Source of the DNA: Candidatus Hydrothermales bacterium
GTDB taxonomy: Bacteria; Hydrothermota; Hydrothermia; Hydrothermales; JAJRUZ01
Direction of reading: 5' to 3'
Assembly: GCA_039630575.1 (NCBI GenBank)
Contig: JBCNUW010000003.1
Location: 97,185 to 144,394 of the forward strand
DNA: 47,210 nucleotides
Positions within the stretch are counted from its first letter, which is position 1; every line of letters starts with the position of its first letter. Below are positions 6,338 through 33,089 of the stretch, piece by piece. The notes beneath the pieces were generated by a model. It was not told the DNA's origin. It was given only the letters and a program-made list of their open reading frames with translations, and did not search any database. Position numbers and translations under genes: made by a program.

Positions 6338-7819
6338 TCAAACTTTAACTCTAAATCCGAAATTAAATCCCAATGATTTTAAAGGATTTATAGCTTTTTT
6401 ACCTTCTCCTCCTATTTTTTCAAACCCTGAAAGTAAACCCAAAAAAGGAATTGTTCCTCCCCCCAGATATAGTGAAATAAATCTTATATTAAAAGAACTA
6501 CCTATACCAAGTGTTACCGTAGGTGGAGTAAAAACTAAAAAATCCTCATATCTTAAGTATCTCCAGAAAAGTACTGAGCCAAAATTAAAGTTCAGTGGAC
6601 CCATTCCAAATCCAGAGGCAAACATTAAGTAGATTCTTCCAAACGCATAACTTGATTGAGGGAAATCTATGTATCCTGCAACATTTATATTAGCAATAAA
6701 ACTTAAATTTAATCCAGCACCAAGTCCAATTAATTTAGGAAATTTTAAATCTTTTTTTAGAATTTCATGTTTTCTCTCAGAATAATAAAACTTTATTGAA
6801 TCAGCCGCAACTGTCCCTGATATAGTTCTATTTACACTATCTACAACTATCTTGCTTGTATCTATCAAGAAACGGTCTATCCCATCTATATAATAATAAG
6901 TTCCCACAATACTCCCAGAGAGAGTAAAAGGTATGTTATAGTTAAGGGCACAACCAAAGGTAATAAATGGTAATTTTATTTTTGTTCCTAAAACTAATCC
7001 CAATTGATTTCCAGAAAATTCTCCATTAATTTGATCACCAAAAAATTTTCCTTTAAAGGGTCCACTTAAATTTATATTAACATCCCATAAGTTACCTAGG
7101 TTATCAGAAACTGTAGTATCAACTTTCAGAGATAAATTTTGAAAGTCTCCTATAATATCATAGAAAAGATTAGTTTTACCTTTAAATCTTTTAAAGTTTA
7201 ATCCAGCACCAACTGCTATGTTACCAAATCCAAAAGAACTTCCTATTGAAAATGGGTAAACTTTAAAGCTCATATCTCCTTTACCCTTAAGATTAAGGTT
7301 TCCTTCGCCTATTATGTTTAGTGGAAAAGGAATTTTGACTCTATTTGGAATTTTAGGATGATCTTCTTTTGAAAAAATATCATGTGAATAAATATCAAGG
7401 GATATATTTTCAGTGTAAACAATATCAAAATCAGAACCGAAAAATTCTTCATTATGATAGGATATTCCGAAGTCAAATATTCCAATTTTAAATTTTGTGC
7501 CTGTGAAATCAAAACCACCTTTATTAACTATTTGCATTTTAAAAGGAACGTAAATTTTTGGAATTGAAGTTCCACCGATAGAATCTATTCCGAAAGGTAA
7601 TTTTAAGTTTAATTCATTTTTAAAACCGCTACTTACGAATAGAGAAAATTCATATTTTGCTCCAAAATGTAAGCAGGCAGGGTTTAAGTTGGAGCCAATT
7701 GTACCTTCAGCTTGTGAGACATCTAAAAATCCCCTGTGTAAGAAGTAAAGATTACTTAGGGTGTTTTTAAAGTGAAAGTTTAAAGAGCTTTGAGATATAA
7801 AAAATAGAAAGAAAAGCAT
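6338..7819 (-). CDS. hypothetical outer-membrane beta-barrel-like protein
   Basis: The listed ORF extends into tRNA-Ser, so the likely start is ATG 7819 (MLFFLFFISQ); G/F-rich alternating strands, NPA motif near N-terminus, ends LGFNFGFRVKV. Confidence 0.6.
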   Translation of the reverse strand: MLFFLFFISQSSLNFHFKNTLSNLYFLHRGFLDVSQAEGTIGSNLNPACLHFGAKYEFSLFVSSGFKNELNLKLPFGIDSIGGTSIPKIYVPFKMQIVNKGGFDFTGTKFKIGIFDFGISYHNEEFFGSDFDIVYTENISLDIYSHDIFSKEDHPKIPNRVKIPFPLNIIGEGNLNLKGKGDMSFKVYPFSIGSSFGFGNIAVGAGLNFKRFKGKTNLFYDIIGDFQNLSLKVDTTVSDNLGNLWDVNINLSGPFKGKFFGDQINGEFSGNQLGLVLGTKIKLPFITFGCALNYNIPFTLSGSIVGTYYYIDGIDRFLIDTSKIVVDSVNRTISGTVAADSIKFYYSERKHEILKKDLKFPKLIGLGAGLNLSFIANINVAGYIDFPQSSYAFGRIYLMFASGFGMGPLNFNFGSVLFWRYLRYEDFLVFTPPTVTLGIGSSFNIRFISLYLGGGTIPFLGLLSGFEKIGGEGKKAINPLKSLGFNFGFRVKV

Positions 7820-7830
7820 TTTAGCAAAAA

Positions 7831-7922
7831 CGGAGAGGGCGGGATTTGAACCCGCGAGACCCCTTTTGAGGGTCTGCACGATTTCCAGTCGTGCCCCTTC
7901 GACCAGGCTCGGGCACCTCTCC
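7831..7922 (-). tRNA. tRNA-Ser(GGA), long variable arm, CCA not encoded
   Basis: Acceptor GGAGAGG/CCTCTCC+G; anticodon arm CACGA-CTGGAAA-TCGTG; T arm GCGGG-TTCAAAT-CCCGC. Confidence 0.97.
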
Positions 7923-7956
7923 CTTTTATAAGATTAATATAAATTTTTTAATTAAT

Positions 7957-8733
7957 TCAAATATACAGAAAATTTTTCTTTTCCTTAGCTTTATAAAGTT
8001 TTTGATCTAAAGTTTTAAGTACACTTTTAATATCTCTCATCTCTTCCCAGGTAAAAAGACCTCCTCCTATACTTAATGTTATTTTTACTTTTTCCTTATC
8101 TACTTTAATTTCTTTTTTCTCAAAATTTTTTCTTAGGTCGTTCATAATTTTTTTTGCTTTTTCAAAGGGTTCATCAAACAAAACAATAAATTCATCTCCA
8201 CCATACCTAAAAATAATATTTTTTGATTCTTTTAAAAAAAATCTAATTTCATTTGAAAATTCTTTAAGAAAATGATCTCCCTCCAAATGTCCAAATCTAT
8301 CATTTATCTTCTTAAAGTTGTCAATGTCAATCATAAATGAAGGTATTTTATCGTTTTTAAAAGTACTTAATAGATCTTTAAAATGCTCCTCAAGGTATAA
8401 AAGGTTATAAAAATTTGTTAGAGGGTCTTTAAAAGCTAATTCTCTTAACTCATAATTTTTAATTGAAATTTCGTCAAAAAGTATAACTGTAAGTTCTTCA
8501 ATTCCCTGAAATATACCCTTAAATCTCCTTATATTATTGGGGAGTTTTTTGTTATTAATAATATAAGCAAATAATTTGTAGAGTTCTTTTTTATAAAAGA
8601 AATCAACAAAAAAGATGTAAAGCATTACAAGAGAATAAAGTAATAAAACTATAATAAATAATTTGTGATTTTTAGCTGCAAAGAGTAGAATAGAAAACCC
8701 AAATACAAAGATAATTCTATTATATAGATTCAT
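7957..8733 (-). CDS. membrane-anchored diguanylate cyclase (GGDEF)
   Basis: Two N-terminal TMs, DPLT..YN, IDIDNFKKINDRFGHLEGD, RYGGDEF; no RxxD I-site. Confidence 0.92.
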   Translation of the reverse strand: MNLYNRIIFVFGFSILLFAAKNHKLFIIVLLLYSLVMLYIFFVDFFYKKELYKLFAYIINNKKLPNNIRRFKGIFQGIEELTVILFDEISIKNYELRELAFKDPLTNFYNLLYLEEHFKDLLSTFKNDKIPSFMIDIDNFKKINDRFGHLEGDHFLKEFSNEIRFFLKESKNIIFRYGGDEFIVLFDEPFEKAKKIMNDLRKNFEKKEIKVDKEKVKITLSIGGGLFTWEEMRDIKSVLKTLDQKLYKAKEKKNFLYI

Positions 8734-8769
8734 TTATTAAGTATAATTATTTTTCTTATAATTTTCCAT
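8734..8769. promoter_or_regulatory. 36-bp divergent region with two back-to-back -10 boxes, both probably leaderless
   Basis: Minus strand: TATACT (8745-8740), 6 nt, ATG 8733. Plus strand: TATAAT (8757-8762), 7 nt, ATG 8770. No SD on either side. Confidence 0.6.
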
Positions 8770-18237: not shown

Positions 18238-19970
18238 ACGATAGCAAATACTGGACAGACTTGTGTACAAAGTTCACACCCAACACATAAAAGGGGTGTT
18301 ATAAAGGCTTTTCCATTATAAATTGAGATTGCTGGACAACCAACTCTTATACAAGCTTTACATTTTTCTCCAAGACATTTATCTTCCAAAACCATCTTTT
18401 TATCCCTTTTACCGAAGTAGTCTCTACTTTCCTTTAAAAGAGCACACGGAGCCCTCGCAACTATAACAGAAGGTTCTTCACTTTCAATAGCATTCTTTAA
18501 GATTTTAAGAGTTTCCTTAATATCATAAGGATTAACCTCATAAACCTTTTCAATTCCACAAGCTTTAGCAAGTTCCTTTAAATTTATTTCTTTGGTTTCT
18601 TCACCTTTTGCTGTTCTACCTGTGCCAGGGTGATCTTGGTGACCTGTCATGGCTGTTGTTCTGTTATCAAGAATAATTGTTTTGATACTTCCTTTATTGT
18701 AAGTAATATCTATTAAACCAGTAATACCTGAATGTAAAAAAGTTGAATCGCCTATCACAGCTACCATTCTTTTTGAAAAATCTTTACCTCTTGCCTTTTC
18801 AAATCCTAAGGCATTACCGAGAGAAGCACCCATACATATACAAGTATCCATAGCATTAAAAGGTGGGAGAGCACCAAGTGTATAACAACCTATATCTCCT
18901 GTAACGGTTACCTTCAGTTTTGAAAGACAATAGAAAATACCTGTATGGGGACAGCCTGGACAAAATTGGGGTGGTCTCCTCACTGTTTTGATTGGATCTG
19001 GGTGTGAAAGTTCTTTACCTTTTATTGATTTTCTTACAATATCAGGAGTTAATTCATCACAAATAGGAATATACTTTTTTCCTTCTGCTTTATAACCAAG
19101 TATTTTTATTTCTTCTTCGATAAAAGGCTCATTTTCCTCAATCACGATGATTTTTTTTACCTTTTTATAGAATTTTTTAAATAATTTTTCAGGAAAAGGA
19201 AAAGGCATTCCAATTTTTAGGAACCATGCATCCTTAAACACTTCCTTTGCATAATTATAAGCTACTCCTGATGAAACTATTCCTAATCCATTTTTCCCTT
19301 TTTCAATTCTGTTAAAAGTTGCTTCGGATGAGTATTCTTTAAGTTTTAAAAGTTTTTCTTCGAGTACTTTGTGCCTCTCTCGAGCATTTACTGGTAAGAG
19401 AATGAACTGTTTCGGATTTTTAACGTATTCCTTTATTGGAATTTCCTTTCTTTCGGCCACTTTTACAACACATTTAGTGTGTGAGATTCTTGTTGTCATT
19501 TTAAACAAAACAGGAGTTTCAAATTTTTCAGAGATTTCAAAAGCAAGTTTGATAAAATCATAGGCTTCTTGAGCATCTGAAGGTTCTAGAATTGGTATCT
19601 TAGCAAATTTAGCGTATCTTCTTGTATCTTGCTCATTCTGTGATGAGTGCATACCTGGATCATCACAGGATATGATTACGAATCCACCTTTCACACCAGT
19701 ATATGCAGATGAAAATAATGGATCAGCAGCAACATTTAGACCGACATGTTTCATAGATACTATACTTCTTGCTCCTGCTATAGCTGCACCGTAAGCAACT
19801 TCAAAGGCTACTTTTTCGTTTGTTGACCACTCAGCATTTATTTCAGGGTATTTTGAAAGATTTTCAAGTATTTCAGTTGATGGGGTACCTGGATATGCAC
19901 AAGCAACTTTAACTCCTGCTTCCCAGGCGCCACGTGCAACTGCTTCATTTCCAGAAAGCAGTAATTTCAT
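18234..19970 (-). CDS. iorA: indolepyruvate:ferredoxin oxidoreductase alpha subunit
   Basis: GNEAVARGA, YPGTPSTEI, MKHVGLNVAAD, FCPGCPH, GDIGCY, GDSTFLHSG, C-terminal ferredoxin cysteines. Confidence 0.97.
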   Translation of the reverse strand: MKLLLSGNEAVARGAWEAGVKVACAYPGTPSTEILENLSKYPEINAEWSTNEKVAFEVAYGAAIAGARSIVSMKHVGLNVAADPLFSSAYTGVKGGFVIISCDDPGMHSSQNEQDTRRYAKFAKIPILEPSDAQEAYDFIKLAFEISEKFETPVLFKMTTRISHTKCVVKVAERKEIPIKEYVKNPKQFILLPVNARERHKVLEEKLLKLKEYSSEATFNRIEKGKNGLGIVSSGVAYNYAKEVFKDAWFLKIGMPFPFPEKLFKKFYKKVKKIIVIEENEPFIEEEIKILGYKAEGKKYIPICDELTPDIVRKSIKGKELSHPDPIKTVRRPPQFCPGCPHTGIFYCLSKLKVTVTGDIGCYTLGALPPFNAMDTCICMGASLGNALGFEKARGKDFSKRMVAVIGDSTFLHSGITGLIDITYNKGSIKTIILDNRTTAMTGHQDHPGTGRTAKGEETKEINLKELAKACGIEKVYEVNPYDIKETLKILKNAIESEEPSVIVARAPCALLKESRDYFGKRDKKMVLEDKCLGEKCKACIRVGCPAISIYNGKAFITPLLCVGCELCTQVCPVFAIV

Positions 19971-20028: not shown

Positions 20029-20057
20029 TTGAAATTTTTAATTTTTTGTGATATAAT
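20029..20057 (+). promoter_or_regulatory. sigma70 promoter with extended -10 for tRNA-fMet-trxA-gatCAB
   Basis: TTGAAA (20029-20034), 17 nt, TGn-TATAAT (20052-20057). Confidence 0.8.
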
Positions 20058-20068
20058 AAAAAAAAGAT

Positions 20069-20140
20069 CGCGGGGTGTTGCAGTGGTAGCATTTGGGGCT
20101 CATAACCCCAAGGTCGCGGGTTCGAATCCCGCCCCCGCAA
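20069..20140 (+). tRNA. initiator tRNA-fMet(CAT), CCA not encoded
   Basis: CGCGGGG/CCCCGCA with C1-A72 mismatch; anticodon arm TGGGG-CTCATAA-CCCCA; T arm GCGGG-TTCGAAT-CCCGC. Confidence 0.95.
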
Positions 20141-20155
20141 CTTTTTATTTTCTTA

Positions 20156-20476
20156 ATGCATATTCCAGAAATAAATGATTCAGACTTTGAAGAAAAAGTT
20201 TTGAAATCTGATAAACCTTGTGTTGTAGATTTTTGGGCAGAGTGGTGTCATCCGTGCAGAATGATCGAACCATCAATGGAGGAACTTTATCTGAAATATA
20301 AAGATAAAATAAACTTTTTTAAACTAAATGTTGATGATAATTCAGAAACTCCATCAAAATATTATGTTATGAGCATTCCTACCATACTTTTTATTAAAAA
20401 TGGTGAAATTGTAGATAGGATAATAGGAGCTGTACCGAAAAAAACAATTGAAGAAAGAATTATAGAACTTCTTTAA
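20156..20476 (+). CDS. trxA: thioredoxin (WCHPC active site)
   Basis: VDFWAEWCHPC, KLNVD, SIPT, GAVPK; listed start 20093 lies inside the tRNA, so ATG 20156 is used. Confidence 0.93.
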   Translation: MHIPEINDSDFEEKVLKSDKPCVVDFWAEWCHPCRMIEPSMEELYLKYKDKINFFKLNVDDNSETPSKYYVMSIPTILFIKNGEIVDRIIGAVPKKTIEERIIELL

Positions 20477-20478
20477 AA

Positions 20479-20763
20479 TTGGATTTAGAAAAAGAGGTAA
20501 GAAGAATCTCCGAATTAGCAAGAATAAAAGTAGGCGATTATGAGAACTTTTCCAAAAACTTTTTAAAAATTTTAGATTTCTTTAAAAAAATTGATGAACT
20601 TAATTTAGAAAATGAAAGTCCTTTTTTTTACCTTGAGCATTTAAGAACAGAGCTCAGAAAAGACGAAGTTAAAGAATTCACTGATGTAAATCTTTTATTT
20701 TTTAATTCACCTGAAAAAAAGGGGAATTTTTTTGTAGCCGAAGCTCCCATTGAGTCTGATTAG
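20479..20763 (+). CDS. gatC: Asp/Glu-tRNA amidotransferase subunit C
   Basis: VRRISELARI, LRKDEV, NSPEKKGNFF; precedes gatA. Confidence 0.85.
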   Translation: MDLEKEVRRISELARIKVGDYENFSKNFLKILDFFKKIDELNLENESPFFYLEHLRTELRKDEVKEFTDVNLLFFNSPEKKGNFFVAEAPIESD

Positions 20764-22150
20764 AAAAATTATTTCTAACTATAAAGAGGGAAATAATTTT
20801 CCTTCAGAAGTTTTAAATAATTTTTTCAGTAAAGCAAAGGAGAATAAGTTTAATTCTTTTATAACTTTGAATGAAAAGGTCTTTGATGATGCTGATATTT
20901 TGGATAGAAAAGTGAGAGAAAAAAAGATCGAGGGAAGATTATTTGGAATTCCAATATCAGTAAAGGATAATATTCTTGTAAAAAATTTAAGAACTACTTG
21001 TGCTTCTAAAATACTTGAAAACTACATAGCTCCGTATGATGCTACAGTTATAGAGAGAATAAAAAGGGAAGGTGCTTTAATAGTAGGAAAAACAAATTTA
21101 GATGAGTTTGCTATGGGTTCTTCAAACGAATACTCTTATTTTGGTCCAGCTTTTAATCCCTTTGATAAAGAAAGAGTACCGGGTGGATCTTCTGGAGGTT
21201 CTGCTATTTCAGTAGCTAACGATGAGGCGGTTTTATCCTTAGGTTCTGACACAGGTGGTTCTGTTAGATTACCAGCATCTTTTTGTGGTGTATATGGTTT
21301 AAAACCAACCTATGGAGCTGTTTCAAGGTACGGTTTAATAGCTTTTGCATCTTCCCTCGATCAAATAGGTCCTTTTTCAAAGTATGTAGAAGATCTTGAA
21401 ATAATTTTTGACGTTATTAAGGGTAAGGATGAAAAGGATAATACATCTGTAAAATATCCGGATTTAAAAGTAGAAATTGGTTATCCATTAAAAATTGGAG
21501 TTTTGAAAGAATCTTTTTCTGATAAAGTTGAAGATGAAATTAAGGAGAAGTTAGATGAATTTATTTTATTTCTTGAAAAGGAAAATGTTGCTAAAATTAA
21601 AGAGTTTGAGATGGAGTCTTTTGAATATGCCATAGCTGTTTATTACATAATAGCCTGTGCAGAGGCTTCATCAAATTTAGCCCGTTACGATGGTATTCTT
21701 TATGGATTTAAGAAAAAAGGAGAAAATCTTTTATCAATGTATGAAAATACAAGAACACATGGTTTTGGAGAGGAGGTTAAAAGAAGAATTTTGTTTGGTA
21801 CCTTTGTTTTAAAAAGTGGTTACTATGAAGAGTATTACTTAAAGGCACAGAAGGCAAGAACAAAAATTTTAAGGGAATTTTTGAAAAATTTTGAAAAATT
21901 TGATCTTTTGCTTATGCCTGTTTCTCCAACTCTTCCTTTCAAGATAAAAGAGAAAGTAGAGGATCCTCTTAAGATGTATTTATCTGATATTTTTACAGTT
22001 TCAGTAAACCTGGCTGGACTTCCAGCTATTGCTTTTCCCTATACTTTTTCTAAGAACAACTTACCAATTGGATTTCAATTTATTGGGAAGTTTTTTGATG
22101 AATATCTTTTTTTCTCTCTCTTAAAAAAGATAGAAAGTCTTTTAAACTGA
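20750..22150 (+). CDS. gatA: Asp/Glu-tRNA amidotransferase subunit A
   Basis: GKTNLDEFAMGSS, PGGSSGGSA, GSDTGGSVRLPA, EASSNLARYDG. Confidence 0.98.
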   Translation: MSLIRKIISNYKEGNNFPSEVLNNFFSKAKENKFNSFITLNEKVFDDADILDRKVREKKIEGRLFGIPISVKDNILVKNLRTTCASKILENYIAPYDATVIERIKREGALIVGKTNLDEFAMGSSNEYSYFGPAFNPFDKERVPGGSSGGSAISVANDEAVLSLGSDTGGSVRLPASFCGVYGLKPTYGAVSRYGLIAFASSLDQIGPFSKYVEDLEIIFDVIKGKDEKDNTSVKYPDLKVEIGYPLKIGVLKESFSDKVEDEIKEKLDEFILFLEKENVAKIKEFEMESFEYAIAVYYIIACAEASSNLARYDGILYGFKKKGENLLSMYENTRTHGFGEEVKRRILFGTFVLKSGYYEEYYLKAQKARTKILREFLKNFEKFDLLLMPVSPTLPFKIKEKVEDPLKMYLSDIFTVSVNLAGLPAIAFPYTFSKNNLPIGFQFIGKFFDEYLFFSLLKKIESLLN

Positions 22151-23551
22151 ATGGATGAATTCACTATAAAGATTGGTGTTGAAATTCATGTTCAGCTTAA
22201 AACAAATAGTAAAATGTTTTGTTCTTGTAAAGTGGATATGTCTTCTGAACCAAACGAAAATATTTGTCCTATCTGTACTGGACAACCTGGAACTTTGCCT
22301 CTTCCAAATGAAAGAGCTATTAAATATGCGATTATTGTATCCCGAGCCCTTAATTCAAAAATTCCTGACTTATTGTACTTTTCACGAAAAAATTATTTTT
22401 ATCCCGACCTTCCAAAGGGTTATCAGATTACTCAGTATGGTATCTCAACGGGATATGGGGGGCAAGTTCCTGTTATTAAGGGAAAAGAAATTTTATATTT
22501 CCCGATTGAAAGAATAAATTTAGAAGAGGAGACAGCTAAATCTTTTTATGTTAATGGAAAAGTTTTTCTCGACTATAACAGGTGTGGAATACCTTTACTT
22601 GAAATAGTTACTCCTCCTGTTTTTGATTCTCCCGATATTTTAATAAATTTTCTAAAGTCTTTAAGGAGAATATTAATTTACCTTGGTGTTTCAGATTGTA
22701 ATATGGAGAGGGGAGAATTTAGGGTTGATACAAATATCTCGGTAAATTTTAAGGAAGTTTTTGATCACAGGGTTGAAATTAAAAATTTAAATTCATTAAG
22801 TGCAATTAAAGATTCTTTAGAGTATGAAATCAATAGACAAAAAAAAGCTATATTAAATAACGTTAAGCTTACAAGAGAAACGAGGTTATGGGATGATTTA
22901 AAAAAAGAAACAAGGGTAATGAGAACAAAAGAGTTTGTGGAAGATTACAGATATTTTCCAGAGCCAGATTTACCACCCTTTGAAGTTAATAAACATTATC
23001 TCTCAGAAGAGTTGCCTTTACTTCCTGATTATTACTTTAAGGAGTTAATCAATAATGGTGTAGATCCAAAGGAAGCAGAAATAATATTATCTTCACCTTT
23101 TTTAGCAGATTTTACATTAAAAATTTTAGAGAAATTTCCATTTCAAAAATTTAAAGGATGGATACTAACAGAGATTTTACAGTATATTGATGATTTAGAA
23201 AGCCTAAGAGATTTACCCTTTAATCATCTTGACTTCATTTCATTTTTAGAGAAGTTAGAAGAAGGCTTAATACCAAGGCATATAGGTCAGGATATAATAA
23301 GGAGCTCTATGACTAATAGAGTTAACATATCTGAACTTATTAAGGATAAGATAGAGATTAAAAGTGTTTTGGAGATAAATGAAGTAGTAGAGGAAATCAT
23401 AAGGGAAAACATTGATGTAGTAGAAAAGATTAGAGCAGGTAAGGTTTCTGCAATTTCATATCTTGTGGGCCAAACAATGAGTAAATTAAAGGGAAGAGCA
23501 AATCCAAAAGAAATAAAAGATATAATTGAGAAAAAACTCAATCTAAAATAA
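22151..23551 (+). CDS. gatB: Asp/Glu-tRNA amidotransferase subunit B
   Basis: IGVEIHVQL, RKNYFYPDLPKGYQITQ, EIKNLNS, DYRYFPEPDL. Confidence 0.98.
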   Translation: MDEFTIKIGVEIHVQLKTNSKMFCSCKVDMSSEPNENICPICTGQPGTLPLPNERAIKYAIIVSRALNSKIPDLLYFSRKNYFYPDLPKGYQITQYGISTGYGGQVPVIKGKEILYFPIERINLEEETAKSFYVNGKVFLDYNRCGIPLLEIVTPPVFDSPDILINFLKSLRRILIYLGVSDCNMERGEFRVDTNISVNFKEVFDHRVEIKNLNSLSAIKDSLEYEINRQKKAILNNVKLTRETRLWDDLKKETRVMRTKEFVEDYRYFPEPDLPPFEVNKHYLSEELPLLPDYYFKELINNGVDPKEAEIILSSPFLADFTLKILEKFPFQKFKGWILTEILQYIDDLESLRDLPFNHLDFISFLEKLEEGLIPRHIGQDIIRSSMTNRVNISELIKDKIEIKSVLEINEVVEEIIRENIDVVEKIRAGKVSAISYLVGQTMSKLKGRANPKEIKDIIEKKLNLK

Positions 23552-23557
23552 TTTTAT

Positions 23558-23587
23558 TTGAATTTTAAATCTAAAATTTATTAAAAT
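23558..23587 (+). promoter_or_regulatory. putative sigma70 promoter of the SDR gene
   Basis: TTGAAT (23558-23563), 18 nt, TAAAAT (23582-23587); AT-rich background lowers certainty. Confidence 0.5.
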
Positions 23588-23594
23588 TAAAAAA

Positions 23595-23605
23595 GGTTCA
23601 AATCC
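23595..23605 (+). promoter_or_regulatory. free-standing tRNA T-arm-like motif, copy 1
   Basis: AAGG-TTCAAAT-CCTT hairpin, 20 nt before ATG 23626, no SD. Confidence 0.7.
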
Positions 23606-23625
23606 TTATCCATTTAGATAAAAAA

Positions 23626-24405
23626 ATGAAAGGAGAGTATGCACTCATACTTGGTTCATCAAGTGGTTTTGGAAAGGCATGTTCTCTTTATTTTGCTGAA
23701 AAGGGTTTTAATATATTTGGTGTTCATTTAGACAGGAAAAGTGCTTTATCTGAAGTAAATAGTTTAGTTAATAATATTAGGGCAAAAGGAGTTTTTGTAA
23801 GATTCTTTAATGTTAACGCAGCAGATCATGAAAAAAGAAAAGAGATAATAAATGAAGTTGAAAAAGTTTTAAAAAAGGAGAAAAAGATATTAAAGATAAT
23901 GCTTCATTCATTAGCTTTTGGAACTTTAAAGCCCTATGTGGGAGAAAGTAAGATTAGGCCTTCTGATATGGAGATGACTCTTGAAGTTATGGGAAATTCA
24001 CTCGTATGGTGGGTAGTTGAACTTTTTGAAAAAGGTCTTTTAGGAAAAGGTTCAAGGGTTTTTGCAATGACCAGTATGGGTTCACAGAGAGTTTGGGAAA
24101 ACTACGGTGCAATTTCAGCTTCCAAAGCATTACTTGAATCCCACGTAAGGCAACTATCTTTTGAACTTGCAAAACATGGGATTACTGTTAATGCAATTCA
24201 AGCTGGAGTAACTGATACTCCAGCTCTAAGAAAAATTCCCAACTATGAAAAAATGTTAAAGTTTGCCAAAAAAGTGAATCCTTCAGGTAGGATAACAGAA
24301 CCGTTAGATGTAGCTAAAGCCATATATGCTTTATCCTCAGATGATACATACTGGATTACAGGTAATGTAATAAGGGTGGATGGTGGGGAAGCTATTGCAG
24401 GTTAA
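23626..24405 (+). CDS. SDR oxidoreductase, FabL-like enoyl-ACP reductase
   Basis: ALILGSSSGFG, YGAISASK (Yx6K), AGVTDTPAL, WITGNVIRVDGG. Confidence 0.85.
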   Translation: MKGEYALILGSSSGFGKACSLYFAEKGFNIFGVHLDRKSALSEVNSLVNNIRAKGVFVRFFNVNAADHEKRKEIINEVEKVLKKEKKILKIMLHSLAFGTLKPYVGESKIRPSDMEMTLEVMGNSLVWWVVELFEKGLLGKGSRVFAMTSMGSQRVWENYGAISASKALLESHVRQLSFELAKHGITVNAIQAGVTDTPALRKIPNYEKMLKFAKKVNPSGRITEPLDVAKAIYALSSDDTYWITGNVIRVDGGEAIAG

Positions 24406-24407
24406 GT

Positions 24408-25577
24408 TTATATTTTCTTTCTCATTTCTTTTATTAACTCTGAGGCAATAATATTTCTTAAAATTTCATTTGTACCTTCGTATATCTGTGTTATTTTAGC
24501 ATCTCTCATCATTTTTTCTACAGGATACTCTCTAATATAACCGTATCCACCAAAAATCTGAACTGCCTCTATCGTTACACTCATTGCAACATCTGAGGCA
24601 AAACATTTTGCCATTGCAGATTCTTTCTCGGGTTTCTTTCCGCTGTCTAATGCTTTTGCAACTTGATATGTCAAGGCTCTCGCTGCCTCAATCTTTGTTG
24701 CCATGTCTGCAAACTTATGTTGAACTATTTGAAAACTTGATATTGGTTGACCAAACTGTTTCCTTTGAAGTGAATACTCTATAGCTGCATCAAGGGCTGC
24801 CTGTGCAATTCCTATTGCTTGTGCTGCCACTCCAGGTCTTGTGTATAGAAAAGTACTTGTTGCCACAAACAAACCATAACCCTCTTTACCAATAATATTT
24901 TCCTCAGGAACAAATACATCCTCAAAAATAACTTCTCCAGTTGGTGAAGCTCTTATGCCTAATTTATCTTCCTTCTTACCTATTTTTAGCCCAGGTGTTC
25001 CTCTTTCTACAAGAAAAGCACTCATTCCCCTTGCTCCCTTTTTCGGATCAGTTAGGGCAAAAACTGAGTAAAAGTCAGCTACCTGGGCATTTGTTATAAA
25101 TTGTTTAACTCCATTTAAAACATATCCTCCATTTTTTCTTATAGCAGTTGTTTTGATACTTAAAGCATCACTTCCAGCCTCTGGCTCAGTCAAGCAAAAA
25201 GCAGCTATCTTTCCCTCTGCAATTTTAGGTAGTACTTTTCTTTTTAGGTTTTCGTTACCGAATAGTATTACTGGAAAAGAACCAAGAGCTGTTCCTGCTA
25301 AAGCAAGAGAGATACCTGCACAACCCCATGAAAGTTCTTCTATCGCAAGACATAAAGCAAATACTCCCATCCCTAATCCTCCGTATTCTTGAGGTATGTA
25401 TATTCCAAATAGATCCGTATCTACCATTACTTTAACTATCTCATAGGGAAATTCCGCATTTTTGTCATACTTTTCTCTTACTGGAATAATTTTTTCAATT
25501 GCTATTTTTCTTGCAGTTTGTTTTATCATTAATTCCTCTTCAGTTAATTTGTAAAGCATACCCTTCAAATTTTTCAT
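24408..25577 (-). CDS. acyl-CoA dehydrogenase (start may be ATG 25559)
   Basis: FCLTEPEAGSDA, LNGVKQFITN, RKQFGQPI, QIFGGYGY..EYPVEKMMRDAKITQIYEGT. Confidence 0.96.
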   Translation of the reverse strand: MKNLKGMLYKLTEEELMIKQTARKIAIEKIIPVREKYDKNAEFPYEIVKVMVDTDLFGIYIPQEYGGLGMGVFALCLAIEELSWGCAGISLALAGTALGSFPVILFGNENLKRKVLPKIAEGKIAAFCLTEPEAGSDALSIKTTAIRKNGGYVLNGVKQFITNAQVADFYSVFALTDPKKGARGMSAFLVERGTPGLKIGKKEDKLGIRASPTGEVIFEDVFVPEENIIGKEGYGLFVATSTFLYTRPGVAAQAIGIAQAALDAAIEYSLQRKQFGQPISSFQIVQHKFADMATKIEAARALTYQVAKALDSGKKPEKESAMAKCFASDVAMSVTIEAVQIFGGYGYIREYPVEKMMRDAKITQIYEGTNEILRNIIASELIKEMRKKI

Positions 25578-25583
25578 ACTTTG

Positions 25584-25594
25584 GGAATCGAACC
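25584..25594 (-). promoter_or_regulatory. free-standing tRNA T-arm-like motif, copy 2
   Basis: GG-TTCGATT-CC, 5 nt after the mnmE stop; 24 nt before ATG 25559 (6 nt before ATG 25577). Confidence 0.6.
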
Positions 25595-25599
25595 GTTAT

Positions 25600-26964
25600 T
25601 TATTTTCCTACACAAAAATCCGAAAAGATTTTATTAAGGATCTCATTATCTATATCTTTTCCAATAACTATGTTTAAAATACCAAGACAATTTCTTAAGT
25701 GGAGTCCAGCTAATTCATCCATATCTTCACTAAGTAATCTCTTTGCTTCCAAAAGTTCTGATGTCACTTCTTTTAACTTAGACTCTTCAAATAGAGTAAG
25801 AGAGATCTCTGTGGATCCAAATTGATTTTCTGCTAAAATTTCCAGCTCTTTTTTTAATTTCTCTATGCCTTTTTCTTTTAAAGCACTTATCTCAAAAATC
25901 TTTTCAAAATTATTTTTGATAACCTCTTTATCCCACTTAATTCCCTTATCTATTTTGTTAATTACAAGAATCAAGTTTTTTTTACTGTTTAATTTCTTAA
26001 TTTTTTTTATTTCTTTTTCATCAGGCTTTCTTTGGCTGTCAAGCATCCATATAATTATGTCTGATTCTCTTATAATTTTTTTTGCTCTTTTAATTCCTTC
26101 TTTTTCTATTTTTGATGATGTTCTTAATCTAATACCAGCTGTATCGTATATAATTGAATTTATTCCTTTAACTGAAAAATTCTCTGATATATAATCTCTT
26201 GTTGTCCCAGGTTCTTCTGTGACTATAGATCTTTCTTTTCCCAATAGCTTATTAAATAAGGTAGACTTTCCAACATTAGGAGCCCCACAAATAGAAATTT
26301 TTAAACCATCAAAAATTCTTCTTGAATCTTCGGAATTTTTTAAATAATTACTTATTTTACTTTTAACCTCTTCAATCTCTTTAATAAGCTTTTCTTTAGA
26401 AAAAGGTGGTAAATCTTCTTCAGGATAGTTTAGGTTAACCTCAATTTCTGCTAAGATTTCCTTTATGTTTTCAAATAATTCTTCAAATTTTTTTCTTAAA
26501 TTTCCCTCCAACCTTTTTAATGAAATCTCTAATGCTTTTAAATTTTCAGCCTTTGCAATTTGATTTATTGCTTGGGCAGATATCAAATCAATTTTTCCGT
26601 TTAAGACTGCTCTCATCGTAAATTCACCTGGTTCTGCATATCTTGCTCCTAAATTTAAAAGGGTTTTTATTATAAGTTTAGGTATAAAAGTTCCACCATG
26701 AGTGAATATTTCAATCATATCTTCACCGGTATAACTTTTCGGTTTTTTATAGTATACCCATTGTACTTTATCTATAATTTTTTTTGTTTCATTATCAAAT
26801 AATTTTCCAAGATACATTTTTCGGTGTTTGTAGGGTGGAGGAGGTTCAGCAATTTTTGAAAAAATATAAAGGGTTTTTTCACCAGAAATTCTTATAATGT
26901 TAAGAGCTGATCCCTTCGAAATTAAAGTAGCAGGTGCACAGATGGTATCCTCTAATCTTTGCAA
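25600..26964 (-). CDS. mnmE: tRNA modification GTPase MnmE
   Basis: DTICAPAT, PKSYTGED, GAPNVGKST, GTTRD, DTAG, C-terminal FCVGK. Confidence 0.97.
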   Translation of the reverse strand: MQRLEDTICAPATLISKGSALNIIRISGEKTLYIFSKIAEPPPPYKHRKMYLGKLFDNETKKIIDKVQWVYYKKPKSYTGEDMIEIFTHGGTFIPKLIIKTLLNLGARYAEPGEFTMRAVLNGKIDLISAQAINQIAKAENLKALEISLKRLEGNLRKKFEELFENIKEILAEIEVNLNYPEEDLPPFSKEKLIKEIEEVKSKISNYLKNSEDSRRIFDGLKISICGAPNVGKSTLFNKLLGKERSIVTEEPGTTRDYISENFSVKGINSIIYDTAGIRLRTSSKIEKEGIKRAKKIIRESDIIIWMLDSQRKPDEKEIKKIKKLNSKKNLILVINKIDKGIKWDKEVIKNNFEKIFEISALKEKGIEKLKKELEILAENQFGSTEISLTLFEESKLKEVTSELLEAKRLLSEDMDELAGLHLRNCLGILNIVIGKDIDNEILNKIFSDFCVGK

Positions 26965-26965
26965 A

Positions 26966-27559
26966 TTATATTGAAGGAGCGATAATAATATTTTTTCTTT
27001 TACCTTTTCCTGCTGTATAAATTTTTATTCCTTTTTCCCTTTTTAATGCTTTTCTTACTAATCTCTCTTCTTCCTCAGTAAGCACATCAAGAGTTATTTC
27101 TCTTTTTGATTCTCTCACAAGTTTAGCTACGGCTTTTGCTTTGTGAATTATAAAAGCTTGTTTTTTCTTTTTATAATTTGATATATCTAATCTTACTTTT
27201 AGATCCTTAAATTTTTTTCTAAAAGCTTGATATAAAATATGTTCAAGGGCTTTAAGCGTTTCACCTTTTTTTCCTATTAATAAATTATCTGATTTTCTTG
27301 TTGAGAGGTTAACATGTATTCTTGGTGGATGAAAGGCAAAATTTATTTTACCCCTATCCCTCATTATTTCTAAAATTCCATTTAAAAAATTTTCTATAAA
27401 TTCAAATTCCTTGAACTCAAGATAAACTCTTACTTTTGCATTATTTTGATTATCGTTTAAAATTTCCACTTTAACGTCTTCCCTTTTTGCACCTGTTTCT
27501 AAAAGTGCCTTTTCTATTGCCTTTTCAACCGTTTCAGCTTTTGTTTCAATGTATTTCAT
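26966..27559 (-). CDS. jag: Jag/KhpB (EloR) RNA-binding protein
   Basis: Jag_N (AETVEKAIEKAL), KH motif LIGKKGETLKALE, degenerate R3H; lies between yidC and mnmE. Confidence 0.85.
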   Translation of the reverse strand: MKYIETKAETVEKAIEKALLETGAKREDVKVEILNDNQNNAKVRVYLEFKEFEFIENFLNGILEIMRDRGKINFAFHPPRIHVNLSTRKSDNLLIGKKGETLKALEHILYQAFRKKFKDLKVRLDISNYKKKKQAFIIHKAKAVAKLVRESKREITLDVLTEEEERLVRKALKREKGIKIYTAGKGKRKNIIIAPSI

Positions 27560-28956
27560 CTTTGAATCCTTCTTTTTATTAAAAGACTTTCAAAAATTCC
27601 AAGTATATTATAAAGCAACCAATAGTATACAAGTCCAGCAGGTAAGTTTAAAAATATTATTGTAATAAAAATAGACATAAAAATTCCAATTCTTCTTGTT
27701 TGTTCATCCTGAGATGGTTGAAGGAACTGCTGCAATAGTGAGGTCAAACCCATGAGAATTGGAAGAACATAAAAGGGATCTCTTGAAGATAAATCCTTTA
27801 TCCATAAAAATAATTCTTTTCCTCTAAACATTATCTCATTTGTTAAGACCTGGTAAAGTGCCCAAAATACAGGGAGCTGTAATAATAAAGGAAAACATCC
27901 AGAAAAGGGATTCACACCCTTTTCTTTATAAAGTTTCAAAACTTCTTCATTTAATTTTTTAGGATCATCTTTATAAATTTTCCTCAAAGCTTCTAACCTT
28001 GGTTTTAAATCCTCCATCTTTTTCATTGCTCTCATCGACTTAATAGTTAATGGCATAAAAATAATTTTCATTAAAAGTGTAAAAACAAAAATTACAATAC
28101 TGGAAAGTTTAATTGTACCATAAAACCATTTAAAGGAATACAAAATAAATAAAGTAAAAGGTTTTATAATCCAAAAACCAAGTGGATATAACTCGTAAAG
28201 TAAATATCCTTCTTTTTTTAATATAAAATAATCCTTAGGACCTATAAAGGTATAAAATGAATCAACAGTTTCAGTTATAAATTTAAAGAATTTCCCCTCC
28301 CTATAACCTTCAGCTTTAACAATCTTTTTAAAATACTCCGGCTTTATTATAACTTGTATAAAGTACTTTGTTTCACTTCCCACCCAGAGAGTATTCTCTC
28401 CACCAAAATCTATATCAGAAAAATTTTTTAAATTATGTTTTTTAATACTACCTCTTTTATATTCAATTAAGTTATAATTTTTTTCATCAATTGGATCAAT
28501 AGTTGGTAAAAAGGAAAATAAAAAGAAATTAACATTTTTAAATTTAACTTTCAATTTGTAACCATCTAAAAGTAAAAATTCCTTTGAAATCAAACCATCT
28601 TTTGATTTAAATACTACGCTTTTCTCATCAAATTTATTCAATTCCAAAAGAGTATCTAAGGGTGTGATAAAATTTGGAACATATATTTTAAGGTTTTCTT
28701 CATTTTTAAAATCCCGGAATTTTTTAAGTTCAATTTCCTTTATAATTCCACCCTTTTTCAAAAGAAAAATCCTCAGGTATTCATTTTCAATTAAAATTTT
28801 TTCATCTTCTGGAATATTTAAAGATTTTGGCTCAACTTTAATCTTTTTATTCTTTTCTTCTCTCTCAACTTCCTTAGGTAAAAACTTTAAAAGAAGTATA
28901 TTGTAAACAATAAAAAATAAAATAAGGGTTAAAATCAACGCTAAGTTTCTTCTCAT
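27556..28956 (-). CDS. yidC: membrane protein insertase YidC
   Basis: Periplasmic domain, GPK, VNPFSGCFPLLLQLPVFWALY, WIKDLS, PAGLVYYW. Confidence 0.96.
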   Translation of the reverse strand: MRRNLALILTLILFFIVYNILLLKFLPKEVEREEKNKKIKVEPKSLNIPEDEKILIENEYLRIFLLKKGGIIKEIELKKFRDFKNEENLKIYVPNFITPLDTLLELNKFDEKSVVFKSKDGLISKEFLLLDGYKLKVKFKNVNFFLFSFLPTIDPIDEKNYNLIEYKRGSIKKHNLKNFSDIDFGGENTLWVGSETKYFIQVIIKPEYFKKIVKAEGYREGKFFKFITETVDSFYTFIGPKDYFILKKEGYLLYELYPLGFWIIKPFTLFILYSFKWFYGTIKLSSIVIFVFTLLMKIIFMPLTIKSMRAMKKMEDLKPRLEALRKIYKDDPKKLNEEVLKLYKEKGVNPFSGCFPLLLQLPVFWALYQVLTNEIMFRGKELFLWIKDLSSRDPFYVLPILMGLTSLLQQFLQPSQDEQTRRIGIFMSIFITIIFLNLPAGLVYYWLLYNILGIFESLLIKRRIQR

Positions 28957-29195
28957 TTTTTAAAAAGTTTTATGTAATCTTCATACGGATAGTTTATACC
29001 ACCTCTTGAAAAGGGGTTACATCTAAAAATCCTAAAAGCTGAAAGTATAAGACCCTTTAAAACTCCATAATCCCTTATTGACATTTCAGCATAATAGCTA
29101 CAGGTTGGATAAAATCTACAGGAAGGGGGGAAGAAATTAGAAAAAATTCTTATAACTTTTATCAAAATAATCAAAAAATTTTTCATTTCTCCCAA
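28953..29195 (-). CDS. yidD: membrane protein insertion efficiency factor YidD
   Basis: CRFYPTCSYY, RIFRCNPF..GG; start could be ATG 29186. Confidence 0.93.
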   Translation of the reverse strand: MGEMKNFLIILIKVIRIFSNFFPPSCRFYPTCSYYAEMSIRDYGVLKGLILSAFRIFRCNPFSRGGINYPYEDYIKLFKK

Positions 29196-29509
29196 AGTTC
29201 CACCAGTTCTTTTTCAATATCATTAATGTGTGTATTTAGTATTTTACTATTTCCTATCAGAACAACATCATAGCCTTTAAACAAAAGCTTATTTCTTCTA
29301 AAAATTTCTCTTAAGATTCTTTTTATTCTATTTCTATCATGTGCCTTTAATTTTTTTCTTTTAGAAGAGAAAGCAACCTTTCCCTGACCCTTTTTGTAAG
29401 CAACCAGTATCATTTTTCCCTTTTTAAATTCACCAGTTTCAAAAATATCTCTTATTTCATCTTTTTTAAGTCTTTGCGGAAGTTTATAATCTATACCGTT
29501 AATTTCCAC
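29183..29509 (-). CDS. rnpA: ribonuclease P protein component
   Basis: [18 protein letters not shown] (RNR motif); lies between rpmH and yidD. Confidence 0.88.
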
Positions 29510-29625
29510 CTTCCCTTCTGCCTCCTTCTTTTTAAAACCTTTCTACCGCCTTTTGTTTTCATTCTCGCTCTAAACCCATGTCTTCTCTTTCTTTTAATTT
29601 TACTTGGTTGATATGTTCTCTTCAT
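29491..29625 (-). CDS. rpmH: 50S ribosomal protein L34
   Basis: Manual translation [44 protein letters not shown]; not in ORF track. Confidence 0.98.
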
Positions 29626-29644
29626 ATTTATTAATTCAAAAATG

Positions 29645-29655
29645 GGATTTGAACC
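29645..29655 (-). promoter_or_regulatory. free-standing tRNA T-arm-like motif, copy 3
   Basis: GGG-TTCAAAT-CCC, 19 nt before rpmH ATG, no SD. Confidence 0.7.
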
Positions 29656-29675
29656 CCCCTAAGTTAAAATATCTT

Positions 29676-30941
29676 TTAGGGAATATTAACTATTTTATTA
29701 TCGACAGGTTCAACTCCACCTATATTATCTCCGTTAGAATCAAGTTTCAAACCGTCTAAATCTTTTACATTCTTGTTTATCCAAAGCCAGACTGGATTAC
29801 TTTTATTTGAAATAAGGGTAAGTTCTATGTATGTTCTTTTTTCTCCATGATGTTGTATCTTTTTCATATTAAATGGAACAGCATCTTGTAGATAATTTCT
29901 GAACACTTTAACTGTGTTATAGTTTATTGTAGATGTGTCCATAAGTTCGTCAAACCAGAAAACGATTAAATTTTCTGATCTTGAACTATTGAGATAAGAA
30001 GGATAGTCAGTTCTGGTTAAACTTTGGGTAACTGTTGCAAAGAAGATTTGTACTCTATCTATTTCATTCTTTTCTGAAATACCATTGTTATTACCATCAA
30101 GTGAATTTCCTGCTATATCCTTTAAATTTGTATTTATAATAAGTTTATATACTTTACTATAATTTAAAGAAAAGCCTGAAAAAATAATATCTGTTCTATT
30201 TAGTGGAGAATCTATTGTAACTCTTGGATTTCCGATATTTATTTTTAACCCTGATTCATACTCATAAAGTTCAAAAGCTCCATTAACCGAATTCCTATCA
30301 ATATCATTTACATAAAATCTAACATGTATACTGTCATTTATTCCAATTAAACCTCCAAGGCGAAGGGGATTAGGAGATATTAAATTAGCAGGAATTCTGA
30401 AGCTTGGTGGACGGTAATCTGGATCAGGTACAAGGTTTCCTCTTCTTGTCCAAAGGGTATTGTGGTAGTCATCGAGTGAACCCTCTGCATACCCATTTCT
30501 ATTTCCATCAAGAGGGTTTCCTGAAAGATCCTTTGCTGTACTTTTAATTATAACTTCATACTTTGTAGAGTCAGTAAAACCAAAATTTTGTGAAAGTATA
30601 TAGACTGCTCTGTTTGAAGTTTTCTCATAATTCCATGTTCCGTTTGGAACCTCTGTACTTCTTCCTCCTACTACTTTCAGCTCAATAGAGGCGAGAAGTG
30701 ATTTTTCGTCCATGGGCTCTGAAAAGTATATAAAAATTATATCTTGAACATTAGGGTTTAGAGTATCGAAATCCTCTAACACTCTATCGCCGTCTAATGT
30801 AACAACAGATGTAACTGTTGGTAATCTGTTCTCTTTAATTACTTCTTCTCCTAATATACCTGGTTCAATAGGTAAGGATTTTCTTTTACAGGATAAGAAA
30901 ACTAAAGCTATTGACATATTTATTAATACTAACTTTCTCAT
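29676..30941 (-). CDS. lipoprotein with three bacterial Ig-like (Big_5/SbsA-type) repeats
   Basis: Lipobox FLSC; FSEPMD / FDELMD; repeats KDLSGNPLDGNRNG, KDIAGNSLDGNNNG, KDLDGLKLDSNGD; AAGGAGG SD. Confidence 0.8.
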   Translation of the reverse strand: MRKLVLINMSIALVFLSCKRKSLPIEPGILGEEVIKENRLPTVTSVVTLDGDRVLEDFDTLNPNVQDIIFIYFSEPMDEKSLLASIELKVVGGRSTEVPNGTWNYEKTSNRAVYILSQNFGFTDSTKYEVIIKSTAKDLSGNPLDGNRNGYAEGSLDDYHNTLWTRRGNLVPDPDYRPPSFRIPANLISPNPLRLGGLIGINDSIHVRFYVNDIDRNSVNGAFELYEYESGLKINIGNPRVTIDSPLNRTDIIFSGFSLNYSKVYKLIINTNLKDIAGNSLDGNNNGISEKNEIDRVQIFFATVTQSLTRTDYPSYLNSSRSENLIVFWFDELMDTSTINYNTVKVFRNYLQDAVPFNMKKIQHHGEKRTYIELTLISNKSNPVWLWINKNVKDLDGLKLDSNGDNIGGVEPVDNKIVNIP

Positions 30942-32666: not shown

Positions 32667-32684
32667 TAGTTAAAAAAAATTAAA

Positions 32685-32695
32685 GGATTAGAACC
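32685..32695 (-). promoter_or_regulatory. free-standing tRNA T-arm-like motif, copy 4
   Basis: GAGG-TTCTAAT-CCTT abutting the cutA stop, 18 nt before ATG 32666, no SD. Confidence 0.7.
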
Positions 32696-33004
32696 TCATT
32701 TTAATGTCTCATCAATCCATTTTAAGTAATCTAAATTTCCTTTATCAATTTTTAGTGATATAATTTCTGGCACTTCATAGGGATGAATTTTTTTTATAAA
32801 GTCTTTAAGTCTATCAAATTCTTCTTCTTTTGTTTTTATTAAAAGCAGATATTCTTCCTCTTCTTCAATTTTCTCTTTCCATTTAAAGATGGAATCCACT
32901 TTTAAATAGTTAACACATGCAGCCAATTTATTCTCTATGATTTTTTTTGAAATTTCACAAGCTTTTTCTTTTCCAGGTGTAGTGCAGAGAACAAGTATAT
33001 ACAT
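32696..33004 (-). CDS. cutA: divalent-cation tolerance protein CutA
   Basis: KLAACVN, SIFKWK, E.LLLIKT, HPYEVPEII, YLKWI. Confidence 0.96.
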   Translation of the reverse strand: MYILVLCTTPGKEKACEISKKIIENKLAACVNYLKVDSIFKWKEKIEEEEEYLLLIKTKEEEFDRLKDFIKKIHPYEVPEIISLKIDKGNLDYLKWIDETLK

Positions 33005-33016
33005 CTAAATAAAAAG

Positions 33017-33089
33017 TGCACCGCCCGGGAGTTGAACCCGGAACCCTCGGATTAAGAATCCGATGCTCTGCCTGTTGAGCTAGCGGTGC
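33017..33089 (-). tRNA. tRNA-Lys(CTT), CCA not encoded
   Basis: GCACCGC/GCGGTGC+A; D arm GCTC/GAGC; TCGGA-TTCTTAA-TCCGA; CCGGG-TTCAACT-CCCGG. Confidence 0.96.

What the first reader, a model, noticed from the sequence alone, without database searches (positions are those of the whole stretch)
7819..33089. All three tRNAs sit as 5' leaders of SD-less protein genes, with the same T-arm spacing as the free motif
Seen: tRNA-Ser, tRNA-fMet and tRNA-Lys are each followed after only 11, 15 and 12 U-rich nt by an ATG (7819, 20156 trxA, 33004 cutA), with no hairpin terminator and no SD. Their T-arm GGTTCRANTCC ends 22, 26 and 23 nt before the ATG, overlapping the 18-24 nt range of the free copies. Inference: either the tRNA T-arm doubles as the initiation signal, which would suggest an origin for the free motif, or tRNA 3' cleavage generates the mRNA 5' end, as in mitochondrial tRNA punctuation.
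Basis: partly seen in the sequence, partly recalled or inferred. Interest (0 to 1): 0.75.

Follow-up and report, generated by a model that had tools for sequence, protein, structure and literature searches.

The report
tRNA genes serving as mRNA leaders
In this uncultured WOR-3 bacterium and its relatives, over half of the single tRNA genes are followed about 12 bases later by the start of a protein gene that has no ribosome-binding site, and a free copy of the tRNA's T-arm often takes over when the gene drifts away, so the tRNA may itself act as a translation-start signal.

Summary
23 of 40 non-tandem tRNAs have a start codon 9-17 nt after the discriminator and none at 0-8 nt; after protein stop codons the figure is 118 of 1569. 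Such spacers almost never hold an SD (2 of 70, against 51 of 79 gene-gene gaps). T-loop-to-start spacing overlaps that of the free motif but is about 3 nt longer (median 23 vs 20). The arrangement also occurs in sister families that lack the free motif, so it is probably older. In this family, genes displaced over 30 nt from their tRNA carry a free T-arm in 15 of 22 cases (background 16%; other families 0 of 24). Flush mitochondrial-type punctuation does not fit here, but it fits one other genus of the class. No armed RNase Z, RNase E/G, RNase J or HARP was found in this genome. Best reading (0.42): the attached tRNA or T-arm positions the ribosome. Rivals: an elbow-anchored cut about 12 nt downstream (0.30), passive compaction (0.22). 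No RNA data. The scan reported the free motif before on other DNA of this genome, and flush tRNA-gene junctions in another genome.

The parts
7831..7922 (-). tRNA-Ser(gga), no encoded CCA; T-loop motif at 7842-7852
7820..7830 (-). 11-nt SD-less spacer
6338..7819 (-). 493-aa gene of no known family; behind the same tRNA at 12 and 14 nt in G001 and G005
20029..20057 (+). sigma70-type promoter (11 of 12 matches), 11 nt before tRNA-fMet
20069..20140 (+). initiator tRNA-fMet; T-loop motif at 20119-20129
20141..20155 (+). 15-nt U-rich SD-less spacer
20156..20476 (+). trxA; behind tRNA-Met in G001, G005, G006 and G008 (14-15 nt in three of them); gatC and two more co-oriented genes follow
23595..23605 (+). 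free T-loop motif, 20 nt before a FabL-like gene (ATG 23626)
25584..25594 (-). free T-loop motif, 6 or 24 nt before in-frame ATGs of an acyl-CoA dehydrogenase gene
29645..29655 (-). free T-loop motif, 19 nt before an ATG at 29625 (small basic ORF upstream of rnpA; rpmH by recall, not scanned)
32685..32695 (-). free T-loop variant (one mismatch), 18 nt before ATG 32666
32696..33004 (-). cutA; behind tRNA-Lys(ctt) at 10-15 nt in G001, G005, G006, G008
33005..33016 (-). 12-nt U-rich SD-less spacer
33017..33089 (-). tRNA-Lys(ctt); T-loop motif at 33028-33038
33128..33152 (-). intrinsic terminator upstream of tRNA-Lys, so the tRNA heads its own unit

Best explanation
The tRNA gene heads a tRNA-mRNA transcript. 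Shown: fixed 9-17-nt SD-less spacers, conserved tRNA-gene pairs, and free T-arms at displaced genes. Inferred: most transcripts stop or are cut in the AU-rich trailer and are trimmed to mature tRNA (RNase PH, PNPase and RNase R are present), while transcripts that keep the folded tRNA are translated. The T-arm/elbow is held by the ribosome or by a bound factor and sets a start codon about 23 nt past the T-loop, without an SD and even at UUG, GUG, CUG or AUU. In family f1 this cue became detachable: an 11-nt T-loop hairpin about 20 nt before the start (3 nt closer, as single strand replaces the acceptor helix) does the same job at over 100 other genes. The binding partner is unknown.
For: 23 of 40 tRNAs lead a gene at 9-17 nt and none at 0-8, against 113 and 172 of 422 gene-gene gaps of 0-60 nt (Fisher 1.6e-9, 1.6e-6). 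SD in 12-17-nt spacers: 2 of 70 after tRNAs (7 genomes), 51 of 79 after genes. Genes over 30 nt from their tRNA carry a free T-loop in 15 of 22 f1 cases; background 94 of 596; other families 0 of 24. Same-gene swaps: tldD-like, IF-2B-like and sdhA-like genes are tRNA-led in some genomes and free-motif-led in others. G005 holds a copy of a tRNA-Ala 3' end (21 of 22 matches) and a probable decayed tRNA-Pro, each with an intact T-arm 22-23 nt before ATG. In 23 of 33 genes with both free motif and SD, the SD begins within 17 nt of the motif and an obligate downstream cut would destroy it. The promoter-made leaderless class shows an excess only of ATG, while 8 of 25 tRNA-led genes use other codons. 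In C. crescentus short leaders and near-cognate codons strongly lower leaderless initiation (PMC8459731, passages). Generic strong hairpins show no 9-17-nt peak (low power).
Against: No RNA, ribosome or binding data. Genus g14 of the same class has flush starts (19 of 35 at 0-7 nt, 8 of them TTG), which implies cutting there and weakens the start-codon argument. Weak codons and missing SDs could simply damp expression from strong tRNA promoters. Aquifex HARP cuts trailers 13 nt after nt 72, exactly at the peak spacer length (PMC12217051, sections 10 and part 1 of 11). Families without free motifs show the same spacing, so no T-arm-specific factor is needed for them. Orthologues that lost tRNA contact are not enriched for the motif. 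The relaxed motif used was set after I had seen the sequences, and the three f1 genomes are not independent (about 11 of 17 separate loci). The anti-SD is intact.
Confidence: 0.42

Rival explanations
1. Offset punctuation: a nuclease anchored on the T-arm/elbow cuts about 9-12 nt past the discriminator (17-20 nt past a free T-loop). This releases a pre-tRNA for exonuclease trimming and a leaderless or nearly leaderless mRNA.
For: The single-copy tRNAs lack CCA (1 of 46 has it) and must be released. Aquifex HARP needs tRNA structure, binds the T-arm and cuts between +85 and +86, which is where the AUG begins in a 12-nt spacer (PMC12217051); 12 nt is the commonest SD-less spacer (28 cases over 7 genomes). 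HARP is in f4 (8 of 8), f8 (3 of 5) and f9 (7 of 7). A leaderless class exists here (-10 boxes 5-7 nt before 75 starts among 291 genes). No RNase E/G or J was found that would destroy a 5'-monophosphate product. The gene behind tRNA-Leu(taa) sits at 3 nt in G023 and 10-12 nt in three other genomes.
Against: HARP was not found in f1 (0 of 6) and gave one weak hit in 5 f2 genomes, though these have the strongest signal. The RNase-Z-like protein of f1 lacks the arm and f2 has no orthologue. SDs lie inside the part that would be cut off (23 of 33 free; 5 of 9 tRNA+SD in f1). Many free motifs sit about 1-11 nt from a predicted start of transcription, where cutting gains nothing over a leaderless promoter. 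CUG and AUU starts.
Confidence: 0.3
2. Passive co-transcription: compaction pushed genes up to tRNAs; 9 nt is only the clearance a ribosome needs beside a stable structure; AU-rich open RNA and bS1 allow SD-free starts; weak codons damp output. The free motif is a separate matter.
For: Coding density about 91%; full-length bS1 present; the layout exists in families without free motifs; U-rich trailers are generic; accessibility models of start choice are in print (PMC8459731 introduction).
Against: Does not explain free T-arms at displaced genes (15 of 22) or T-arm remnants at tRNA spacing. The small, compact g14 genomes chose 0-7 nt instead. No like peak behind other hairpins (low power). 61 Bacteroidota genomes show no excess (183 vs 252), but these are mostly larger genomes.
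Confidence: 0.22
3. Mitochondrial-type punctuation at the discriminator by RNase Z, leaving a 9-17-nt leader.
For: CCA-less tRNAs; an RNase-Z-family protein in 6 of 6 f1 genomes; flush junctions in g14.
Against: That protein skips about 50 profile positions that form the arm and is fully covered only by armless YhfI-type structures. Deleting the arm abolished processing of a canonical tRNA by ELAC2 (PMC11996679, passages). A flush cut should favour spacers near 0; none under 9 occurs here. Primary 9-17-nt SD-less leaders are not enriched.
Confidence: 0.06

Closest known systems
Mitochondrial tRNA punctuation (RNase P and RNase Z/ELAC2 release leaderless mRNAs; model recalled, enzyme details from PMC11996679 passages)
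   Same: tRNA genes placed directly before SD-less protein genes on one transcript.
   Different: Spacer is 9-17 nt, not flush; no armed RNase Z found; anti-SD intact and SD genes common. Only genus g14 has flush junctions.
Bacterial tRNA-mRNA operons such as E. coli metY-nusA-infB (cited in the reference list of PMC12217051) and thrU-tyrU-glyT-thrT-tufB (recalled)
   Same: tRNA and protein genes share a promoter.
   Different: Those are single loci with long leaders (recalled). Here over half of the tRNAs lead a gene, at a fixed short distance, almost always without SD.
HARP 3'-trailer cleavage (Aquifex, Hydrogenobacter; PMC12217051)
   Same: A T-arm-anchored ruler whose cut falls 12 nt past the discriminator, the peak spacer length here.
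   Different: In-vitro activity not linked to mRNA starts in the sections read; HARP not found in this family.
tRNA T-arm / T-loop motif (part of Rfam RF00005)
   Same: G53-C61, U54, A58 kept in the free copies; flanks pair more than swapped flanks (1.36 vs 0.93 extra pairs, 0 of 2000 swaps reach it).
   Different: Free copies lack D-arm, anticodon arm and acceptor stem; no Rfam family matched two free copies.
tRNA-mimicking viral IRES and TURBS ribosome-tethering elements (recalled, not searched)
   Same: A structured RNA sets a start site without SD pairing.
   Different: Here the element would be a real tRNA or its T-arm upstream of an ordinary start codon in a bacterium.

Membership tests
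Mitochondrial-type tRNA punctuation | Start codon flush or nearly flush with the tRNA 3' end | tested here: not met
   0 of 40 tRNAs at 0-8 nt in G000; met in G023, 19 of 35 at 0-7 nt.
Mitochondrial-type tRNA punctuation | RNase Z with a flexible arm cutting after the discriminator | tested here: not met
   No match over the TIGR02651 cut-off in 31 genomes; the best f1 protein (245-248 aa) lacks the arm. G000 is 95% complete.
Mitochondrial-type tRNA punctuation | Co-transcription of tRNA and gene | tested here: inconclusive
   No terminator or promoter between them in the three window cases; no RNA data.
Mitochondrial-type tRNA punctuation | Processed 5'-monophosphate mRNA ends | not testable with these tools
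   Needs 5'-end sequencing.
HARP-type trailer cleavage | HARP (PF08745) gene present | tested here: not met
   0 of 6 f1 genomes; over the cut-off in 28 of 61 class genomes.
HARP-type trailer cleavage | Cut 12-15 nt after the discriminator matches start position | tested here: inconclusive
   Peak spacer 12 nt, but 43 SD-less spacers of 9-11 nt would be cut in or past the start codon by the Aquifex rule.
Canonical leaderless mRNA | -10 box 5-7 nt before the start | tested here: not met
   The class exists in G000; for the three window genes no promoter lies in the tRNA or spacer.
Canonical leaderless mRNA | AUG start codon | tested here: inconclusive
   The three window genes use ATG; 8 of 25 tRNA-led genes in G000 do not.
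Structured-RNA ribosome recruitment element | Fixed distance to the start codon, SD not needed | tested here: met
   Interquartile 22-24 nt (tRNA) and 19-22 nt (free); SD in 2 of 70 spacers.
Structured-RNA ribosome recruitment element | Direct binding of ribosome or initiation factor | not testable with these tools
   Needs toeprinting or structure.

The most novel reading that the evidence does not exclude
A bacterial lineage uses its own tRNAs, still joined to the message, as Shine-Dalgarno substitutes, and one family has cut this signal down to a portable T-arm hairpin: a further bacterial initiation mode beside SD-led, leaderless and coupled starts, with its evolutionary source and intermediates visible in the genomes.
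Probability: 0.4. Interest if true: 0.9.

Novelty: new variant of a known kind. Interest (0 to 1): 0.72.

Why it matters
How bacteria choose start codons without an SD is an open question. Here the cue would be defined (an 11-nt T-loop at a set distance) and can be tested by point mutation. Even under the cutting model this is bacterial tRNA punctuation on a genome scale, in two spacing regimes within one class (flush in g14, about 12 nt elsewhere), in organisms whose CCA-less tRNAs have no recognisable RNase Z, RNase E or RNase J. That points to an unidentified tRNA 3' nuclease or to an in-vivo role for HARP trailer cleavage. It also corrects gene starts: CUG and AUU starts behind tRNAs would be missed by annotation.

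Tried and rejected
RNA reads: no RNA holder listed for window 19900-29800; no reads were laid. No 16S in G000, so the anti-SD comes from relatives (intact in all 14 loci printed, of 16 examined). Motif as a -35 box: rejected by spacing (a -10 would fall on the start codon) and because -10 boxes lie upstream of the motif. U-runs as part of the start signal: no difference between leading and other tRNAs. RNase Z explaining the flush genus: its best hit is an unrelated metallo-beta-lactamase. HARP explaining the flush/shifted split: it is present in both kinds and not found in f1. Free motifs as relics of tRNAs at orthologous genes: not supported. G005 tRNA-Ala(cgc) derived from tRNA-Val: rejected. 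The decayed tRNA-Pro copy in G005 beat 200 shuffles (57 vs maximum 44.5) but was not matched by the Rfam tRNA model, so it is only probable; three other G005 spacers tested the same way did not beat their shuffles. Searches for tRNA-led SD-less bacterial genes returned no paper. The library omits most subscription journals. No Aquificota or Thermotogota control could be run. No supplements were read.
Full report
Observation. ARAGORN and Rfam find three tRNAs in the window. Counted from the discriminator, the next ATG is 11 (Ser), 15 (fMet, trxA) and 12 nt (Lys, cutA) away, or 22, 26 and 23 nt from the end of GGTTCRANTCC. No terminator or promoter lies between tRNA and ATG; fMet has a near-consensus promoter 11 nt upstream and Lys a terminator upstream. 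The closest named trxA relatives are WOR-3 genomes at 83-87%; 'Hydrothermales' comes from earlier notes.

Genome-wide. G000 (1.89 Mb, 30% GC, 95% complete) has 46 tRNAs. Genes were called with my own dicodon script (1641 genes), so single starts can be wrong. I set aside 5 tRNAs followed by another tRNA and 1 near a contig end. Of the other 40, 23 have an ATG/GTG/TTG opening at least 70 codons 9-17 nt downstream, 0 at 0-8, 3 at 18-30 and 1 at 31-60. Gene-gene gaps of 0-60 nt fall 172/113/54/83 in the same bins (Fisher 1.6e-9 for 9-17). After all stop codons 118 of 1569 meet the test; a mirror control on the other side of the tRNA gave 0 of 43. Two more genes start at near-cognate codons and are not in the 23: a phosphohexomutase at CTG +16, aligned with a TTG start in G005 and with ATG/GTG starts at 10-12 nt in four other genomes, and a FkbM-type gene probably at ATT +12. 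Spacers of 12-17 nt hold an SD in 2 of 70 cases after tRNAs (7 genomes) but 51 of 79 after genes; part of that contrast is expected, because such gene-gene gaps exist to house an SD. With an SD the tRNA spacer is mostly 17-27 nt.

Free motif. 94 exact copies lie outside tRNAs. SD-less ones (exact or one mismatch) end a median 20 nt before the start (IQR 19-22, n=80) and tRNA T-loops 23 (22-24, n=22; p=5.5e-5): overlapping, not identical. The motif is confined to family f1: 134-219 exact hits in 5 genomes, 25-75 in 146 others of the phylum.

Relatives. All tRNA loci of six more genomes were fetched. Starts at 9-17 nt: G001 24 of 43, G005 15 of 42 (f1); G006 8 of 39, G008 19 of 35 (f2); G012 8 of 35 (f4); G016 17 of 38 (f8, loci 61% GC). 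fMet-trxA and Lys-cutA are kept across f1 and f2, while f4 and f8 mostly use other partner genes. A pattern count (ATG 20-24 vs 33-37 nt after the motif) gave 266 vs 123 in 38 class genomes outside f1, 478 vs 416 in 108 other phylum genomes (by subtraction) and 183 vs 252 in 61 Bacteroidota. The far window includes SD-led starts, and kin are not independent. So the tRNA-led layout is wider, and probably older, than the free motif; I built no rooted tree.

Swaps. Among f1 genes starting more than 30 and under 200 nt after a tRNA, 15 of 22 have a T-loop motif 15-45 nt before the ATG; the G000 background is 94 of 596; other families 0 of 24. G000 alone is 1 of 4. Six rows were dropped first: four near-cognate starts, one short ORF and one gene on the other strand. 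The relaxed pattern was post hoc, and my hand count of separate loci is about 11 of 17 (p=6e-4 at a 25% background). G005 has a tRNA-Ala 3'-end copy before the tldD-like gene that follows tRNA-Ala directly in four other genomes, and a probable decayed tRNA-Pro, both with the T-arm 22-23 nt before ATG. Against a general tRNA ancestry: 22 G000 orthologues of genes tRNA-led elsewhere (from 76 queries) carry the motif in only 3 cases.

A second regime. In G023 (genus g14) 19 of 35 non-tandem tRNAs have starts 0-7 nt away, 8 with TTG, many aligned from residue 1. The flush pattern scores 10-20 in the four g14 genomes and 0-8 in the other 147. There the tRNA must be cut off first (inference), so cutting exists in this class.

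Machinery. Only 1 of 46 tRNAs encodes CCA. No genome of 31 passes the RNase Z cut-off; f1 (6 of 6) and f8 (3 of 3) have an RNase-Z-like protein without the arm (model pLDDT 88). RNase E/G 0 of 5, RNase J no real hit in 5, beta-CASP 2 of 5 and not G000. HARP 0 of 6 in f1 but present in f4, f8, f9 and others. G000 has rnpA and an rnpB-like motif, RNase Y, RNase R, RNase PH, PNPase, TruB, TrmI, a TrmFO-like protein, bS1 and bS21; no RNase III hit. The anti-SD is intact in three f1 relatives.

Mechanism. Ribosome positioning on the uncut RNA (0.42) best explains the swaps, the SDs that lie inside the would-be cut-off piece (23 of 33), motifs next to predicted transcription starts and CUG/AUU starts beside an ATG-only leaderless class (PMC8459731 passages). 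An elbow-anchored cut (0.30) has a close precedent: Aquifex HARP cuts between +85 and +86, where a 12-nt spacer puts the AUG (PMC12217051, abstract, section 10 and first part of section 11 read), but HARP was not found in f1. Passive compaction with damping (0.22) cannot be excluded for families without the motif. Flush RNase Z punctuation (0.06) fails on spacing and enzyme (PMC11996679 passages). The models may combine, since the tRNAs must in any case be released.

Novelty. Paper searches found no description; passages of PMC10783764 did not mention it. A recalled Dictyoglomi motif remains unchecked. Earlier scan notes described the free motif in this genome and flush junctions in another; the tRNA link, its spread, the swaps and the two regimes are what this report adds. 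Verdict: a real, lineage-wide new variant of tRNA-headed transcripts, with a 40% chance of being a new initiation mode. Interest 0.72.

Noticed in passing
G023 tRNA loci (L419-L448, L457-L465); G028, G122, G149 by pattern: Genus g14 has flush tRNA-to-start junctions (19 of 35 at 0-7 nt) without an RNase Z; its divergent HARP gene lies shortly downstream of a tRNA gene in all four genomes (tRNA-Lys(ttt) in G023). Looks like true bacterial tRNA punctuation by an unknown enzyme.
   Followed up: partly
G000 C34:20282-21607(-) (L334) and C56 (L335); G001 L157, L164: Probable CTG start of a phosphohexomutase gene and ATT start of a FkbM-type gene, both directly behind tRNAs and kept in two genomes.
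   Followed up: partly
G000 C78:10557-11294 (L324, L373): Armless RNase-Z-like metallo-hydrolase in all six f1 genomes and in f8; its gene has a -10-like box 6 nt before the ATG, so it looks leaderless.
   Followed up: partly
G000 whole genome: CCA-less tRNAs but no armed RNase Z, RNase E/G, RNase J, beta-CASP, HARP or RNase III found; the 3'-processing endonuclease is unexplained.
   Followed up: partly
G000 C3:56139(-); G001 L161; G005 L023: In f1 the tRNA-Trp to L33-like (rpmG by recall) spacer is 27-29 nt and holds a conserved short inverted repeat covering the ATG; f2 and f4 have 13-16 nt. Possible autoregulatory leader.
   Followed up: no
G005 L027, L030: A tRNA-Ala 3'-end copy and a probable decayed tRNA-Pro, each right after an intact tRNA and both starting with the same five bases.
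   Followed up: partly
G000 whole genome: A promoter-made leaderless class of roughly 60-70 genes with only ATG in excess.
   Followed up: partly
G000 C46, C48, C70, C83: Small contigs with second copies or pieces of tRNA-fMet, tRNA-Thr, pnp and a tmRNA-like end; probably strain or contaminant pieces.
   Followed up: no
G006 L198: A tRNA that ARAGORN reads with a four-base anticodon, at the tRNA-Ala(cgc) position before the tldD-like gene.
   Followed up: no
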